The notes under the pieces are model-generated. The model did no database searches. It saw only the letters and a program-made list of their open reading frames with translations, and had not been told where the DNA came from. DNA of 64,000 nt from Octopus sinensis (lineage: Eukaryota), in assembly GCF_006345805.1 (NCBI RefSeq), contig NC_043004.1:16244001-16308000 (forward strand), written 5' to 3'. Position 1 is the stretch's first letter. Every line of letters begins with the position of its first letter. The position numbers and the translations under genes were made by a program. Of the stretch, positions 3,691 through 63,578 are shown one piece after another.

Positions 3691-6600
3691 TTATTGTATG
3701 GAAAGTGTTCTGCGTAGGATGTGTGCAGTGCCTAGTAGTGCAATTTTCTGTATGTTATATGTGTTTGTAAGTCCTGGTGTTTTTGTTATGTATTTGTCTG
3801 AATATTTTTTTATCATGCCTAATGCACCTACTATGATAGGAATTGTTTCTGTTTTCAGATTCCACATTCTAGTTACCTCTATTTCCAGGTCTTTGTATTT
3901 TGAGAGTTTCTCCATTTCTTTTAGAGACATGTTGTCATCAGCCGGTATTGATACATCAATTAGAAAACATTTTTTTCTTCATGATCTCTGACAACTATAT
4001 CTGGTCTGTTGGCCTTAATTTCTCTATCTGTGTGTATCGGCATATCTCAGATTATGGTTGCTTTCTCGTTTTCTGTGACCTTTTCTGGTGTGTGCCTATA
4101 CCATCTTTTTTCTGTTGTTATTCCATAATGTTGGTATAGCTTCCAATGTATGTAGGTTCCAAATCTGTCATGTCTGTGAATATATTCCTTCTTAGCCAGG
4201 ACTGGGCAGCTAGAGATAATATGATTTATTGTTTCTTGTCCATCTCCACATATTCTGCAGTTACTTGTAATATTTCTTTTCATTATATGTTTTTGGTAAT
4301 TTCTGGTGGGGAGGCTTTGGTCCTGTGCTGCAATTAAAAATCCCTTTGTTTCTGCTTTGAGTCCTGAGCTTCTCAACCATTGTTGGGATTTTTCTTTGTC
4401 TATTTCTTTTGCGTTTAGTTTAGTCCAGTATTTACGATGAAGGGGCTTTTCTTGCCATCGTTTTATCATGGTTCGTTGCTGTTCTATTTTTAGATTGGAT
4501 TTCATTTGTTTTATAGCTTTTGCTGTTTCTTCATCTTCTTCTTCTTCTTCTTCTTCTTCTTCTTCTTCTTCTTCTTCTTCTTCTTCTTCTTCTTCTTCTT
4601 CTTCTTCTTCTTCTTCTTCTTCTTCTTCTTCAAGTTTATTAGGTGGTATGATTTCTTGTTTGTATTTGTCAGCTTCCTTAAATACTGAGAACAGTTTTTT
4701 GTTTTGCTCGTGTTTTGCCGCTATCTGGATCAGTTTTCCTTCCTTCTGAAGTAGATATTTTTGCAGTCATATGGTGGTTATGTTATAGTAGTTTCCCAGC
4801 TGTATAAGGCCTCTACCACCTTCTATACGTTGTATATATAGTCTTTCTATGTCAGATTTTGAGTGATGCATCCTAGATCCTGTCATTATTTTTCTTGTTT
4901 TCCTATCTATTTTGGTCAGTTCATTTAGTGTCCAGTTAAGAATATTGTAGCTGTAACTGGGACGGCTAAAGTGTTGATACCTATTATCTTGTTTTTAGCA
5001 TTGAGCTCTGTTTTTAGTATTGATCTAACTCGTCTATAATATTCTTTTTTTATTTACTCTTTCATTTGTGTGTATTGTGTCTTATCTAGTTCATGGATTC
5101 CTAAGTATTTGTAAGTTTGGCTTTGGTCTAATTCTTTTATTTCAATGGTTTTTATCTAGTGTGATGTTGTTACTCTTAACTAGTTTTCCTCTTTTCATGG
5201 TTACTTTGGCGCATTTTTCTAATCCAAATTCCATATCTATTTCTTTGGTAAATCCATGAACTGTCTTTAATAGTGTCTCCAGCTGTTTGTCATTTGCAGC
5301 GTATAGTTTTAGGTCATCCATATATAAAAGGTGGCTGATCATTTTGCCGTAACATTTATATCCGCATCCAGTTCTGTTTAGCATATCCGATAGAGGTGAT
5401 AGTGCCAAGTAGAAAAGGAGTGGAGAGAGCGTATCTCCCTGGAATATTCCTCTTCTAATGGGGATGTCTTTGATTTTCACAAGTCCCTCTTTTATTTGGA
5501 GCTGTAGCACTGTTTGCCATTTATTCATAGAGTGTCCTATGAATTTTATAATTGTTGGTGCAAATTTGTTCATGGCTAGTGTTTCGAGGATCCATTTGTG
5601 GGGGATGCTATCAAACGCCTTTTTTGTAGTCGATCCAGGCCATACTAAGCCCTTTCTTCTTTCAGTGGCTGTCTTCAGTTATGGCTTTATTGATCATTAG
5701 TTGATCTTTACAGCCATATGAGCCTTTGCGGTATCCTTTCTGCTCTTCTGGAAACAGGTTGTTTTCGTCCAGGTGCTTGTTCAATGTTTGCGATATTACT
5801 GCAGTAAATGCTTTGTACATTGTAGGGAGACAGGTTATAGGTCTGTAGTTTTCTGGCTTTGCTGTCTCATTTGATTTAGGAATTAAGATGGTTTTCCCCT
5901 TCGTGAGCCATTCAGGCATTGTCTCTGGCTCTGCCAGTATGTAGTTAAAATTTTCAGCCAGCTTTTTGTGCATTCCTGTTAGATATTTCAACCAGAAGTT
6001 GGGGATCTTGTCATGCTCAGGTGCCTTCCAGTTGCTTAGTCTTTGCAGTGCCTGGGTGACCTCTTCAGTTGTTATGGGGGTCCAAAGTTGTTCAGATGCT
6101 GAGTTTGTTGTTTTAATACTCATTTTTTTGGTTGTTCGTTCGCCGACCATATTTCTCTCCAGAATTCTTCCACTTTTTCTGCCGTTGGTGCTGCAGTGAT
6201 TTCTATTTTATTTTTGCCAAGTTCTTGGTAGAACGTTTTGGGGTTGGAGTTGAACTGTTTGTTTTGTTCAAAGAAACGTTGGCGTTTCTCGTACCGGCGG
6301 ATCCTTTGTGCTTTGGCAAGGATATCTTGCTTTAGTTTTTCTTTTATCTCAGGTAAATCTTTTTCTGTGGTGTTGTATTTGCGGAGTATCTTTGTTTTCT
6401 TTTTGTTGCTCAGTAGTGCTGATTGTCTACTGATTTCATTAAGAATCGACAGATCTTTTCTCATTTTTTGTATTTTGTTTTTGATGTTATTTATCCACAG
6501 GGTTTGCTTGGGTGGTGTTACTCCTGTTTGGATGGGTTTGAGTGATTATCCAGCTTTTTTTGTGGCTGCAGTGGCTGCTGCGTATACTAAGTCATTTAGC

Positions 6601-19151: not shown

Positions 19152-22050
19152 ATGCCGGATCCTAGGTCCTACCTCCTCACCCTCCATCACCGTTTGAAGG
19201 ATCATCTACGTTCGCTTCCTGTATATTGCCGTCAGCCGTCCGTTAATCTCTCTCTACTTCTTTTTAAAAAAACCCGCTTCTCTAGCCATGTCTCTTTCCT
19301 AAGCCGCTGCCTACATCACCGACTCATCCCTAAAGGTTTCCGCCTCCACTTCTACCCTGCTCTCCACTCGGATTCTTCCATCTTACCCATACTCCGCACC
19401 ACATCTTACCGCCTTATGCGGGCCACCATTCGCTCCAATCCTCCAAACTACATGCCATCAACCGCCTTATTCCTCCTGCTTTCTCCACCTTCTTCTCCTC
19501 TCTGCCGCCTCTCTATGCCCCAAACACGCTACGCTTCATTATCCATTTGAATCAACTCTTCCATCAATTTCTTTTGATACCAAACTTCGTAAACTCCAAT
19601 CACTCTTCCATTCCACCCTACCCGACGCCACTACCCCAACTCCTCCACCACCCTTCTCCCCTCCCGATAGGCTCCATCCACCCACACCTAACCCCACTGC
19701 CCCCCCCTACAAACCCTTCTCCCCTCCCGTTAGGCTCCATCCACCTACACCTAACCCTACTGGCCCCGCCCAACCACCCCCACACACCTCCCCAATCCCT
19801 CCCCCTCAGACCTCCACGAGACCTACACACCCCTCCTACTTCTATTCCACTCACCCCTTCTCCACTTCCGTCTGTTGTTACCATTCCCCACCGATCTTCC
19901 CCTCTCTGCGGCTGAACGCTCCGTCCTTGGTAGGGGTCTGCGTTTCATCCCCCTCACTCCATGCTGTAAGGAATTCCAGACGCGAGTTGATGTCCACATC
20001 TTTGTGCGCCGTGTCCGGTTGGGTGCGCATTACCACGACTCGCCACCCACACCCAACGAAGAAGACGACTGCTTCACTGGCCTGGGACGCCGACCATCCC
20101 CGTGGACGCCTGCCCCTGGCCAGATCCTAGCAGTGGATCTTTTCGCGGGCGCTTGTCAGCGTGCATTGGATCGGTTCAACTTCTCCAGGCGCCAACGCCG
20201 CCTCAACATCTCCCCGGCTGAGCTTTTGGCTCTTCGTTCCCTCCAACGGCGCGCTGACATTATCATCAACCGGCTGACAAGGGTGGAGCTGTAGTGGTGT
20301 GGCGCGCGGGACCTCTATAGGGCCGAGGCTTTCCGCCAACTCAATGAACACCTCCTTCTATTCCCCTCTGCCCTCTAACCCCACACGTAGCTACCAACAG
20401 ACGGTATCCTCTACTGTCCAAGACCTCATCTCGTCCTCCCGTCTCCCCCGCACCGCATCCAACCTAATTGTGCGAACCCCACGTACCCCCACCATTTACT
20501 TCCTCCCCAAAATCCACAAACCCAACAACCCTGGCCGCCCCATCGTCTCCGCCTGTAACTGCCCCACGGAGCTCATCTCTAAATACCTCGACCGTGTCCT
20601 TGCCCCCCTAGTGGCATCTTTCCCTCCCACATCCACGATACCAACCATGCTCTCCGGCTTTTAAACTCTTCTCCTTTCCTCCGGCTCCTCCAAAATCCTT
20701 TTTCTATGGACATCCAAAGCCTCTATACTGTTATCCCTCACCACGAAGGACTGCAGGCCCTTCGACACTTTCTTGACCTCCGCTCTAACCCTGTACCTGA
20801 CACCTCCACACTCATTCGTCTGGCCGAACTTGTCCTTACTCTGAACTGCTCTCGTTCGCGGGCGAGTTCTACCATCAGGTCTCGGGAGTGGCCATGGGAA
20901 CGCGAATGGGCCCCCGCTATGCGAACCTGTTCGTTGGCTATGTTAAGGCCCAAATATTCTCTAATTTCACTGGTCCACTCCTGAACTATATGGTCGTTAT
21001 ATTGACGACATTATCGGTGCCACCTCACTCTCCCGCGAACATCTAGATTCTTCCTCTCTTTCGTCCAATCTTTCCATCCAGCCCTCCACTTCACTTCCAC
21101 TATCTCCAACACCTCTGTCCTTCCTCGACATTTCGGTTAGCATTCTTCACTCCACTCTTACCACCTCCATTCACTACAAACACACAGACTCACACTCATA
21201 CCTCAACTTCTCTTCCTCCCACCCAGAACACACCAAGCTTTCCATCCCCTATTCCCAATCCTCCGTCTACGTAGGCTCTGTAGTGACGACCATGACTTTG
21301 AGACTCAGTCTCTCAACGTATGGCTCACCACTTCCCTACGTGGATACCCCCTCACCACTATCCACCCGCCCTTGCCAGAGCACGGTCCGTGGACGTGTTG
21401 TATCTGCTCTCTCTCCCCGAACCCGCCTGTAGTCTCCCGCCGCCCTTTTCCCCTCACTTACCACCCCACGACCCTACGTCTCCCCAACGCACCATTCTTC
21501 GAACTTTCCGTCATCTCCAGTCCGACCCGTCCACTTCACACCTCTTCCCTAACCGACCTCCCCTCTTTCAAACGAGCCCACAACCTTCGAGACCTTTTGG
21601 TCCATAGCTCCTTCCCTGACCCTACCTCCCAACCCGGCTCGTTCCCCTGCTCCCGCCAACGTTGCCGCACTTGCCCTTACCTCTCCAAACACACCCGCCT
21701 CACTAGCACCCACCATCGACCCTATCCCATCATCCACTCCTTCACCTGCACCTCCAGCAATATTATCTATTGCATCTCTTGCTCTCTTTGCAATTCCTTG
21801 TACATCGGACAAACGGGACGCCGCTTGGCTGACCGGTTCGCGGAACACCTTCGTGACATCCACCTTGCGAACGACTCACGGTCTCACGCCATTTCGCTCC
21901 ACACGGTCACTCCTTGCAACACCTATCTGTGTTCGGTTTGTCCTTACACAGAGGCCATCCGGATTCCCGTTCCGCCGTGAACAGGAATTAATCTTCTCTC
22001 TTCGCTCTTATACGCCATTTGGTCTCAACTCTCCCCCCCTCCTCATCTAA
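19152..22050 (+). pseudogene. Penelope-like RT + GIY-YIG endonuclease ORF, frameshifted as assembled
   Basis: N-terminal FLSRCLHHRLIPKGF; IYFLPKIHKPNNPGRPIVS; MDIQSLYTVIPH; GVAMGTRMGP; RYIDDI; Cys linker CSRQRCRTC; NIIYCISCSLCNSLYIGQTGRRLADRFAEH; ends PFGLNSPPLLI*. Confidence 0.92.
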
Positions 22051-58839: not shown

Positions 58840-59070
58840 CAATTAAGGACAACTTCTTAATAAGGAAAACTTAACAAGAAATTATCGGGTAGATAGCGTG
58901 AAAAACCTCATAAGAGAAAACATTTCGAAAATAATTATTTCTTATTGAACATATTAAATTTATATATAGATACATGCCACACGCTAAGAGGGAAAAATTA
59001 GTCATTTCTACCAAAAATTTTACTAATCCCACCGAATGCAATTTTTCAAAGTAAGACATTTAAAAACATG

Positions 59071-59117
59071 GACTTGTATCACCTGTGATTTCATACCTCT
59101 GTATTCATCAGCAAGTC
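59071..59117 (-). ncRNA. Type I hammerhead ribozyme (minus-strand copy)
   Basis: Exact reverse complement of 59438-59484. Confidence 0.88.
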
Positions 59118-59437
59118 TGGACGTATTATAAATAAACGACCCTACATCGTCAAAGCCGGGCAGCCAACTGGCCAACATCAACGACGCACATGGGTTAGTT
59201 TACATATATTACATCCGGTAAATGGCAAACTTTTACGAATTGCATTTCGGGAAGGAAAAAGTTTTTTCGGAATAAAAATTTATTCCGAAAAAACTGTTCC
59301 TTTCCCGAAATGCAATTCGTAAAAGTTTGCCATTTACCGGATGTAATATATGTAAACTAACCCATGTGCGTCGTTGATGTTGGCCAGTTGGCTGCCCGGC
59401 TTTGACGATGTAGGGTCGTTTATTTATAATACGTCCA

Positions 59438-59484
59438 GACTTGCTGATGAATACAGAGGTATGAAATCACAGGTGATACAAGTC
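59438..59484 (+). ncRNA. Type I hammerhead ribozyme
   Basis: Stem I GACTTG/CAAGTC, core CTGATGA, stem II ATAC-AGAG-GTAT, GAAA, stem III ATCA(C)/(G)TGAT; cleavage triplet AUA, cut predicted after 59478. Confidence 0.9.
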
Positions 59485-59614
59485 CATATTTTTAAATGTC
59501 TTACTTTGAAAAATTGCATTCGGTGGGATTAGTAAAATTTTTGGTAGAAATGACTAATTTTTCCCTCTTAGCGTGTGGCATGTATGTATAATAATGCCCT
59601 CTATATATAAATTA

Positions 59615-59923
<309 letters not shown>

Positions 59924-60127
59924 ATTAATTATAATATATTATAATATATATATATGGGTGTGTGGTAAAACGTTTCTTTCCCAACCACATGGTGCCATTA
60001 TGTGACACATTTGACAAGTTCCTTCTAATAGATCTTCAGGCAATACCTTCAAAGATTATACTATTTTTCTTCATGATATTTATCGCAATTTACTAAAGCT
60101 ATATACACATATCAACGCATTCGCCAT

Positions 60128-60315
60128 GCTGGACCGCTGGAATCTACAAGTTTTTTTTTTATTCTGTCTTTGTTTATTTTCTCTTATTCCTATCTGTTGA
60201 ATAGAGTAGGCTCGAAACGTAAAAGACTTTTTTCAGTTTTCCTGAGCGTCAAAATAATACACTTGTTTGTTGTTCATACACCTGTCTTTAGTTTTTATAT
60301 AAATTATAACTATTT
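60128..60315 (+). mobile_element. Solo Penelope-like 3' end with hammerhead-like motif (60190-60225); duplicated at 61365-61552
   Basis: CTGTTGAATAGAGTAGGCTCGAAACGTAAAAGAC..TTCCTGAGCG..AATAC..CACCTGTCTT matches the pLTR end. Confidence 0.75.
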
Positions 60316-60810
60316 ATATATACACACAAAGTATGGCGGGGTAGTTCACTGCTGACCTAAACAATTAGATACGCTAGGAAAGTGCTTTTACGGATTAATA
60401 AGTCTCCAAGTTTGCAGCCGAGATGATAGTAATGGAGCTATTGCAGATTTCCGATATCGCGGATATATAATTGTTAAAGCGGACAACCTTCTGTCCTAGC
60501 TTGATTTATGCGTTCGCCAACACAACTACGTTTAGGCTTAGCAGCCCTCCTGTTTGTTTTCACTATCCTTTTTGTGTTACCTATTTTGACACTCTGCCAA
60601 ATCACAAATTTTATGTAATTTGCTTCTGGAGCAGCTATTTTATCGGAAGCGTATAGTGTTGTTAAATACTCGAAATACGAGACTAGAAAAACAGCCAGAA
60701 GGGTAATTTTTTTATGTCGTTTGCTTTGCTTTCCATTTGCGTATTTCGTTGTTCACGTTCCATGTACATTTTTGTTGTACACCCTCCGTGACCTCATGTG
60801 CCCACATATG

Positions 60811-60860
<50 letters not shown>

Positions 60861-60870
60861 ATATATATAT

Positions 60871-60962
<92 letters not shown>

Positions 60963-61022
60963 GAAATCAATATTAGAAAATTCTTCAGAAAGACATATAC
61001 GTGCGTAATATTATTGCTGTAT

Positions 61023-61092
<70 letters not shown>

Positions 61093-62049
61093 TTAATACA
61101 ACAATTATTTTACACACGTATATATCTTTCTGAAGAATTTTCTAATATTGATTTTCTGATATTAATTATAATATATTATAATATATATATATGGGTGTGT
61201 GGTAAAACGTTTCTTTCCCAACCACATGGTGCCATTATGTGACACATTTGACAAGTTCCTTCTAATAGATCTTCAGGCAATACCTTCAAAGATTATACTA
61301 TTTTTCTTCATGATATTTATCGCAATTTACTAAAGCTATATACACATATCAACGCATTCGCCATGCTGGACCGCTGGAATCTACAAGTTTTTTTTTTATT
61401 CTGTCTTTGTTTATTTTCTCTTATTCCTATCTGTTGAATAGAGTAGGCTCGAAACGTAAAAGACTTTTTTCAGTTTTCCTGAGCGTCAAAATAATACACT
61501 TGTTTGTTGTTCATACACCTGTCTTTAGTTTTTATATAAATTATAACTATTTATATATACACACAAAGTATGGCGGGGTAGTTCACTGCTGACCTAAACA
61601 ATTAGATACGCTAGGAAAGTGCTTTTACGGATTAATAAGTCTCCAAGTTTGCAGCCGAGATGATAGTAATGGAGCTATTGCAGATTTCCGATATCGCGGA
61701 TATATAATTGTTAAAGCGGACAACCTTCTGTCCTAGCTTGATTTATGCGTTCGCCAACACAACTACGTTTAGGCTTAGCAGCCCTCCCTGTTTGTTTTCA
61801 CTATCCTTTTTGTGTTACCTATTTTGACACTCTGCCAAATCACAAATTTTATGTAATTTGCTTTCTGGAGCAGCTATTTTATCGGAAGCGTATAGTGTTG
61901 TTAAATACTCGAAATACGAGACTAGAAAAACAGCCAGAAGGGTAATTTTTTTATGTCGTTTGCTTTGCTTTCCATTTGCGTATTTCGTTGTTCACGTTCC
62001 ATGTACATTTTTGTTGTACACCCTCCGTGACCTCATGTGCCCACATATG

Positions 62050-62109
<60 letters not shown>

Positions 62110-63313: not shown

Positions 63314-63327
63314 TTATTTTATAGAAG

Positions 63328-63380
63328 GAGCTTCTACAGGACTAGAACTGTTTCATTCAAATGAAATCATCAGGAAGCTC
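63328..63380 (-). ncRNA. Type I hammerhead ribozyme (minus-strand copy)
   Basis: Reverse complement of 63383-63435, with one difference in loop 3. Confidence 0.8.
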
Positions 63381-63382
63381 AT

Positions 63383-63435
63383 GAGCTTCCTGATGATTTC
63401 ATTTGAATGAAACAGTTCTAGACCTGTAGAAGCTC
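63383..63435 (+). ncRNA. Type I hammerhead ribozyme
   Basis: Stem I GAGCTTC/GAAGCTC, core CTGATGA, stem II TTC/GAA with a U-U first pair, GAAA, stem III ACAG/CTGT; cleavage triplet GUA, cut predicted after 63428. Confidence 0.82.
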
Positions 63436-63519
63436 CTTCTATAAAATAAATTAATTTACTCTGCTATGTATTGAGTACCTTATTTATTGTGGTTAACCCC
63501 GACTCAACCCGGGACCTAC

Positions 63520-63578
<59 letters not shown>

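What the first reader, a model, noticed from the sequence alone, without database searches (positions are those of the whole stretch)
63314..63520. Two hammerheads joined head-to-head with only 'AT' between them
Seen: a 136-bp spacerless palindrome whose centre lies one base before stem I of a type I hammerhead (63383-63435 +, 63328-63380 -), with a ~70-bp tail ending at (TA)n. Outside the core the sequence shows no evident similarity to the 59-kb element, so the same architecture appears in a second family. Inference: fold-back or template switching at the ribozyme boundary is part of the insertion mechanism, possibly aided by GAGCTTC/GAAGCTC self-complementarity.
Basis: partly seen in the sequence, partly recalled or inferred. 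Interest (0 to 1): 0.85.

Follow-up and report, generated by a model that had tools for sequence, protein, structure and literature searches.

The report
Penelope stub marks likely transcript start
The back-to-back ribozymes are a common stub of a Penelope-type jumping gene, and hundreds of sister copies break at the same base, likely because the element's RNA starts there and two DNA copies of that RNA were joined head to head.

Summary
The palindrome (63314-63449, one mismatch), both type I hammerheads and the 70-bp tail are real. They are the end piece (pLTR) of an autonomous Penelope-like element with the protein motifs of the Hydra clade, with over 1,260 copies. An inverted short copy plus a one-sided tail is a published PLE pattern, and this scan met it before in other genomes.

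The break point is not random. In 88 position-sampled copies, 33 of 58 inverted arms end at the 5' strand of stem I; 1 of 88 direct arms starts at the cleavage site. 452 loci share one junction. The 59-kb family lacks this hotspot (2 of 30).

The hotspot base lies 29 nt after a TATAAA box, and about 680 arms carry an extra C there, as a capped RNA end would give. The 'AT' is one of many filler sequences. Best reading: two cDNAs, primed at two sites on one uncleaved RNA, ran off its 5' end and were joined. This argues against the published antisense self-priming idea but is inferred from DNA only.

The parts
63314..63379 (-). Inverted short arm: element positions 2-67 (hammerhead plus the AT-rich second end site)
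   Evidence: the outer end fell at positions 61-75 in all 58 inverted arms of the 88-copy sample
63328..63379 (-). Type I hammerhead, minus-strand copy; H17 at 63335
63380..63383 (.). Junction filler CATG: one extra C at the end of each arm plus AT; not present upstream of stem I in read-through copies
63384..63435 (+). Type I hammerhead, plus-strand copy (stem I AGCUUC/GAAGCU, core CUGAUGA..GAAA, U-U opened stem II, stem III ACAG/CUGU, H17 at 63428); its first base is the likely transcript start
   Evidence: TATAAA or CATAAA at -29 in 120 of 132 read-through copies
63384..63519 (+). Direct long arm: element positions 2-137, the 3' part of the pLTR, which in full copies lies 46 nt before the ORF's ATG
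63450..63519 (+). One-sided 70-bp tail between the two end sites (about 69 and 137)
   Evidence: tail defined in PMC8557442 and PMC11167929
63197..63313 (.). Left flank, (TA)n then (GATA)n target microsatellite
63520..63573 (.). Right flank, (TA)n target microsatellite
   Evidence: 80 of 88 sampled copies continue with ATATAT

Best explanation
This is a short insertion of the end piece of a Penelope-like retrotransposon with Hydra-clade protein motifs, likely made of two cDNAs copied from one uncleaved sense RNA and joined head to head where that RNA is predicted to start. Shown: the family has a single ORF (RT with YRDD, C-terminal GIY-YIG-type endonuclease), a 3.4-4.0-kb microsatellite-rich 3' region, and the hammerhead-plus-tail piece both at the 3' end and 46 nt before the ATG. 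Insertions sit in (TA)n; one arm ends at position 137 and the other near 69; short copies stop at the first bases of stem I. Inferred: the endonuclease cuts both strands of a (TA)n target. One end primes reverse transcription at position 137 (CCTAC|ATAT) and the other near 69 (AT-rich). A TATA box at -29 starts the RNA at the A of AGCUUC. When priming happens in this 5' leader, both cDNAs run off the end after about 136 and 68 nt, gain a C opposite the cap and sometimes a few more bases, and are joined. Most often they join through the self-complementary AGCT (452 loci); here through filler. The stub has no promoter or ORF, and if read through, its RNA would form a 67-bp hairpin that is predicted to lock both ribozymes.
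For: Element identity: against the Hydra definition in PMC8557442. Hotspot: 33 of 88 direct arms and 33 of 58 inverted arms end in -3..+10 (binomial p about 1e-20 against an even spread); 452 loci with the AGCT-centred junction. Start site: TATAAA (112) or CATAAA (8) at exactly -29 in 120 of 132 read-through copies across subfamilies; 6 of 30 sampled copies that run on into the ORF leader begin at positions 2-10. Extra C: 706 of 4,675 arms, only 1 of 30 sampled being read-through, against an estimated 180 arms with non-read-through A or G (11 of 30 sampled from 497); 18 of 23 other junctions in loci not selected on that base start with C (4 of the 18 come from a query that began with G). C-ended arms also join straight to (TA)n (L328, L340, L341). 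Full-length L1 insertions carry a cap-derived extra G (PMC11702581). Two cDNAs: 13 of 58 inverted arms reach further 5' than the direct arm, some direct arms stopping at 62-77 where the inverted arm begins; both arms end in C at 9 loci; arms agree in subfamily type at 19 of 20 loci, chance 0.29; one clear 15-bp target duplication (L105). In vitro, a Poseidon PLE cuts and extends both strands, starts at two sites bounding the tail, and needs no ribozyme cleavage (PMC11167929). Hairpin -119 against -50 kcal/mol with one hammerhead forced.
Against: No transcript start was measured: only assembled contigs were available, none on record as RNA. The extra C has another reading: a cDNA ending in T can slip back onto a UGA in the template and add CA without any cap, and 18 of 30 sampled C junctions can be read as plain joins to a C of the partner arm. 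Perfect AGCT-centred palindromes alone cannot tell twin priming from fold-back, and off-centre deletions after insertion could mimic unequal arms. 16 of 30 leader-bearing copies read through upstream of the proposed start, so longer templates exist. The D. virilis Penelope promoter is TATA-less and internal (PMC2377424). The second family shows no such hotspot. A clear target duplication was seen in only 1 of 52 copies, the rest lying in (TA)n.
Confidence: 0.6

Rival explanations
1. Two cDNAs are joined as above, but the RNA end at stem I is not a transcript start. It is made by 5'-to-3' decay stopping at the folded or protein-bound hammerhead, or is tied to splicing at the AG of positions 2-3, and the extra C comes from slip-back.
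For: The stop coincides with the edge of a stable stem. The sequence before it looks like a 3' splice site (pyrimidines, then TAG, CAG or AAG), and in D. virilis Penelope an intron ends at the 5' end of helix I (PMC4209133). Slip-back products such as a re-copied CATCAGGAAGCT are seen (L330, L319).
Against: TATA sits at a fixed -29. No constant upstream exon follows the C: after CA come T, G, A or C. No donor site within 700 nt upstream would give the observed letters in 4 long copies checked.
Confidence: 0.16
2. One reading: the ribozyme boundary itself triggers fold-back or template switching, helped by stem-I self-complementarity.
For: The hotspot is at stem I. One junction uses the GAGCTTC match (L004). 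Five of 88 copies turn at the stem II hairpin (position 15).
Against: A stem-I snap-back would leave one hammerhead in a loop, not two whole ones. C-ended arms also join plain target DNA. The cleavage site is no hotspot. The 59-kb family does not turn at its hammerhead. Naiad PLEs make the same inverted structures without canonical hammerheads (PMC8557442).
Confidence: 0.1
3. Self-priming (fold-back) on one strand, as proposed for PLE head-to-head palindromes using an antisense template (PMC3846280), with AGCT as the turning point.
For: 452 perfect AGCT-centred palindromes; the arms almost always share subfamily type (19 of 20).
Against: An extra C on both arms with a 1-nt spacer (L272/L273) cannot be a fold-back loop. 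13 of 58 inverted arms hold sequence missing from the direct arm. A second AGCT at positions 49-52 is no hotspot. The extra base has the polarity expected from copying a sense RNA.
Confidence: 0.12
4. The palindrome is an assembly or library fold-back artefact.
For: Exact inverted repeats can arise in library preparation; no reads were laid on this locus.
Against: Hundreds of loci share fixed unequal ends and the same junction class. The arms differ at one base. The AGCT junction also shows as a loose contig end in a separately filed public run (X1).
Confidence: 0.02

Closest known systems
Hydra-clade EN+ Penelope-like elements (Craig et al. 2021, PMC8557442; e.g. Hydra-1_Obim, Penelope-13_HM)
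   Same: DKT, CxCX5C, CxxC and CxH motifs, no CCHH; hammerhead in the pLTR, often with U-U at the base of stem II; (TA)n targets; a 5'-truncated inverted copy is noted for Penelope-13_HM.
   Different: A separate family: its hammerhead and N-terminal words are absent from that paper's supplement, and its ORF differs from Hydra-1_Obim by eye. It is about 6 kb with a 3.4-4.0-kb microsatellite-rich 3' region (the clade is generally under 3 kb). RWR for RWK.
Inverted pLTR with one-sided tail and junction palindrome (Adineta Penelopes, PMC3846280; dual opposite-strand hammerheads, PMC4209133)
   Same: Head-to-head inverted copy, tail on one side, palindrome at the junction, two hammerheads on opposite strands.
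   Different: Here the junction is concentrated at one base next to a TATA box and carries an extra C; the tail is about 70 bp, not 30-40. The published reading was self-priming on an antisense template.
L1 twin priming and cap-derived 5' G (PMC11702581)
   Same: Second priming from the other target end gives a 5' inversion joined by microhomology or filler; an extra G marks the capped RNA end.
   Different: Both priming sites are fixed, and the two cDNAs usually copy the same stretch, so the product is a palindrome rather than an inversion of adjacent pieces.
Poseidon element of Anolis in vitro (PMC11167929)
   Same: Two internal RT start sites bound the tail; both target strands are cut and extended; uncleaved RNA is the template.
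   Different: There the ORF starts inside the hammerhead; here it starts 46 nt after the tail. That work did not address how head-to-head junctions form.
Non-LTR retrozymes (bioRxiv 10.64898/2026.07.22.740005)
   Same: Type I hammerhead, short non-coding PLE-derived units.
   Different: This stub is head to head, not a head-to-tail array, and belongs to an ORF-bearing family.

Membership tests
Hydra-clade EN+ Penelope-like element | Single ORF with RT and C-terminal GIY-YIG endonuclease | tested here: met
   652-aa frame with YRDD at 286 and LVY..YIG-type motif at 525; Atlas neighbours carry PF01541 in 26-50% of members; Pfam and PDB sequence scans gave no relevant hit
Hydra-clade EN+ Penelope-like element | DKG motif changed to DKT | tested here: met
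   SDKTKN at residue 55 of P0001
Hydra-clade EN+ Penelope-like element | CxCX5C linker; CxxC and CxH near the C terminus; no CCHH between GIY and YIG | tested here: met
   CNCPDKTTC 506, CDLC 606, CMH 634; one Cys only between LVY and YIG
Hydra-clade EN+ Penelope-like element | N-terminal RWK motif | tested here: inconclusive
   RWR at the matching place
Hydra-clade EN+ Penelope-like element | Hammerhead in the pLTR; pLTR before and after the ORF; inverted copy; tail | tested here: met
Hydra-clade EN+ Penelope-like element | Insertion into (TA)n | tested here: met
   80 of 88 copies continue with ATATAT
Hydra-clade EN+ Penelope-like element | Placement inside the clade on an RT tree | not tested
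   Only compared by eye with Hydra-1_Obim, Hydra-2_Amil and Hydra-1_Ajap in the supplement
Type I hammerhead ribozyme | Core CUGANGA..GAAA..UH with stems I-III | tested here: met
   core positions 9-11, 13, 14, 27-30, 45, 46 vary in under 3% of 381 copies
Type I hammerhead ribozyme | Covariation in stems | tested here: inconclusive
   Stems are invariant, so no compensatory pairs; all 5 recurrent variants fall on N7, loop II or loop III (p about 0.001)
Type I hammerhead ribozyme | Rfam model score | tested here: not met
   No gathering hit; Hammerhead_3 15.9 bits against 48.5
Type I hammerhead ribozyme | Self-cleavage after H17 | not testable with these tools
   Needs an in vitro assay
Non-LTR retrozyme | Head-to-tail tandem units with a hammerhead in each, no ORF in the family | tested here: not met
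   Head-to-head stub of an ORF-bearing family
Twin-priming 5' inversion (L1 type) | Inverted arm templated independently of the direct arm; junction with microhomology or filler | tested here: met
   13 of 58 inverted arms reach further 5'; both-arm C at 9 loci; later deletion is not excluded
Twin-priming 5' inversion (L1 type) | Target-site duplication around the whole unit | tested here: inconclusive
   1 clear case in 52; the rest lie in (TA)n

The most novel reading that the evidence does not exclude
In this family the hammerhead's stem I begins at base +1 of a capped, TATA-driven mRNA, so cleavage at position 46 would cut off the cap and act as an off-switch. Hundreds of genomic stubs record that uncleaved, capped sense RNA is copied twice from two fixed priming sites and the cDNAs are end-joined. 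That would explain PLE head-to-head palindromes without antisense self-priming, and give a genomic way to map PLE start sites.
Probability: 0.45. Interest if true: 0.62.

Novelty: new member of a known kind. Interest (0 to 1): 0.45.

Why it matters
The locus itself is ordinary debris. The family is useful because two questions are listed as open in PMC8557442 and PMC3846280: how PLE tandem and inverted structures form, and what their hammerheads do. This family gives over a thousand young junctions with a sharp signature (fixed stop 29 nt after TATAAA, extra C, two fixed outer ends). That turns twin priming versus self-priming into a test with one 5' RACE and one RT assay. If the start site holds, the ribozyme sits where cleavage would decap the mRNA.

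Tried and rejected
Rfam: nothing at gathering score in the window; the hits are hairpin matches to miRNA models. Pfam and PDB sequence scans of the ORF: nothing relevant. The homologue search gave 801 hits among 7,997 scored candidates, with no informative names among the 120 listed. Expression: no RNA holder listed; contigs of 4 runs cover the pLTR-ORF stretch but cannot show a start, strand or level, so their depth is not used. Cleavage-site truncation as the source of short copies: rejected (1 of 88). Descent of all AGCT palindromes from one master: unlikely, since they occur in at least 4 hammerhead sequence types, though some re-copying is not excluded. A fixed upstream exon or spliced leader as the source of CATG: rejected, the letters after C vary. 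Neptune or Naiad assignment, my first guesses from memory: dropped. 'Non-autonomous element', my reading: dropped when the ORF was found. No PLE ORF was found near the 59-kb family (30 loci). Literature: none of the searches listed a paper that, by title or abstract opening, reports a start-site hotspot, cap-derived base or twin priming for PLE junctions. The two hits for Penelope plus twin priming were seen as listings only, most subscription papers are not covered, and the Anolis paper's supplement was not read.

Full report
Coordinates. Element position 1 is window 63383 and position 137 is 63519. The host is an AT-rich animal genome of 2.72 Gb; I did not determine the species.

Observation. 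The palindrome spans 63314-63449 with one mismatch, in loop III. Each arm holds a full type I hammerhead core. The right arm runs on 70 bp to (TA)n. Rfam does not call it and the 53-nt fold is not beyond shuffles. Among 381 copies pooled from my overlapping, partly selected samples and de-duplicated by flank, the 5 recurrent variants lie at N7, loop II (3) and loop III (1); stems and core are nearly invariant (p about 0.001). There is no covariation because the stems do not vary.

Family. An exact 31-mer from the tail end occurs 1,260 times and a 17-mer of the hammerhead's 5' half 4,675 times. Long copies contain an ORF followed by 3.4-4.0 kb of microsatellite-rich sequence and then the hammerhead and tail. 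The same hammerhead-plus-tail piece lies 46 nt before the ATG (45 exact hits). The protein has YRDD, DKT, CxCX5C, a GIY-YIG-type motif without CCHH, CxxC and CxH, the motifs that PMC8557442 gives for the Hydra clade. It is not Hydra-1_Obim. No tree was built. The window holds no ORF fragment of this family.

Breakpoints. I took the first 90 of the 1,260 tail hits by position and dropped 2 duplicates (L056, L067). This sample leaves out the subfamily with a variant tail. Of 88 copies, 58 had an inverted arm by an automatic rule that missed at least one (L082, seen). All 58 outer ends fell at 61-75. Inner ends fell at -3..+10 in 33 of 58, and direct arms began there in 33 of 88; 18 direct arms read on beyond -100; 1 began at 44-50, the cleavage site. 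Genome-wide, 452 loci have the perfect junction centred on AGCT (904 hits). In a position sample of the 17-mer, 23 of 30 hits were read-through, 4 were that palindrome (2 loci) and 3 ended in C.

The extra base. Read-through copies mostly have T, A or C before AGCTTCC; the G seen in the window is rare there. Yet 706 arms read GGAAGCT then C, and 1 of 30 sampled was read-through. For A or G followed by a non-G there were 497 hits, of which 19 of 30 sampled were another read-through subfamily, leaving about 180. After the C, a purine follows in 198 hits, and it was A in 97 of the first 100 listed. CATG as in the window follows in 37 hits, joined to many different partners. Nine loci among 80 rows examined have the C on both arms, with 1-11 filler bases, so 'AT' is one filler among many. 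Against this: 18 of 30 C junctions can also be read as joins to a C of the partner, and slip-back onto UGA would give CA with no cap.

Likely start site. In 120 of 132 read-through copies TATAAA or CATAAA begins exactly 29 nt before position 2. That this is the usual TATA-to-start spacing is my own knowledge. Six of 30 sampled copies that continue into the ORF leader begin at 2-10, 16 read through upstream and 8 begin elsewhere. Full-length L1 insertions carry a cap-derived extra G (PMC11702581). I infer that the RNA starts at the first base of stem I. Public runs could not test this.

Two cDNAs rather than fold-back. Thirteen of 58 inverted arms reach at least 10 nt further 5' than the direct arm, and several direct arms stop at 62-77, where the inverted arm begins, as L1 twin priming predicts. 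Arms agree in subfamily type at 19 of 20 loci (chance 0.29), which fits one template. One copy has a clear 15-bp target duplication. A Poseidon PLE in vitro cuts and extends both strands from two start sites that bound the tail and needs no ribozyme cleavage (PMC11167929). PMC3846280 read such palindromes as self-priming on an antisense template and left the question open.

Second family. The 59-kb element has 73 exact hits of a 23-mer. In 30 sampled hits the arms begin mostly far upstream of stem I, with 2 of 30 within -3..+10 (Fisher p 0.001 against this family). The window's own copy turns about 160 bp upstream of its stem I. The architecture is shared; the turn at the ribozyme is not.

What is known. 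Inverted truncated copies with a one-sided tail (PMC8557442), junction palindromes (PMC3846280) and paired opposite-strand hammerheads in PLEs (PMC4209133) are published. U-U at the base of stem II is common in Hydra-clade hammerheads (14 of 25 families, by eye). If read through, the stub's RNA is predicted to fold as a 67-bp hairpin about 69 kcal/mol below the fold with one hammerhead. Earlier notes of this scan describe the same kind of stub in other genomes as ordinary; none matched this sequence.

What I saw of each paper. PMC8557442: passages, sections 11 and 15, supplement parts 2 and 52 and searches. PMC11167929: parts 1-2 of 4 of the text. PMC3846280: passages and Discussion. PMC4209133: passages and section 5. 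PMC11702581 and PMC2377424: passages. bioRxiv 10.64898/2026.07.22.740005: part 1 of 5. Others: listings only.

Verdict. Observation confirmed; interpretation partly supported. New family of a known clade, ordinary locus, with a family-level signature worth a bench test. Interest 0.45.

Noticed in passing
window 58965-59612: Second hammerhead-bearing family: 312-bp arms, 73 exact hits of a 23-mer, several same-strand pairs about 460 bp apart, (TA)n ends; no PLE ORF found in 30 sampled loci.
   Followed up: partly
window about 59700-62100: Tandem duplication with a period near 1,237 bp, each unit holding a roughly 260-bp inverted repeat around (TA)n.
   Followed up: no
L023 and L059, just upstream of the direct arm: Pieces of RT coding sequence are captured at the junction: in L023 a piece of this family's own RT, in L059 a different RT-like frame. 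This suggests template jumps after run-off.
   Followed up: partly
G000 C9:87.42 Mb (L366-L370) and C16:42.88 Mb: Short arrays of pLTR plus ORF leader (about 420-bp and 250-bp units) in both orientations, retrozyme-like.
   Followed up: no
L122, L289, L319 (one locus): Repeated short re-copies of the stem I end at the junction, which look like several rounds of slip-back.
   Followed up: partly
Hydra-2_Amil consensus in the supplement of PMC8557442: A TATATA run lies about 30-38 nt before stem I of its hammerhead (by eye), a lead that the layout may be shared in the clade.
   Followed up: no
window 21141-21980 (+): Frame ending in a GIY-YIG-like endonuclease with a CxxC linker (IIY..C..C...YIG), probably another Penelope-like element.
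   Followed up: no
window 4047-4766 (-): Frame resembling a non-LTR retrotransposon C terminus, interrupted by a long (GAA)n run read as poly-Glu; the label is recalled, not searched.
   Followed up: no
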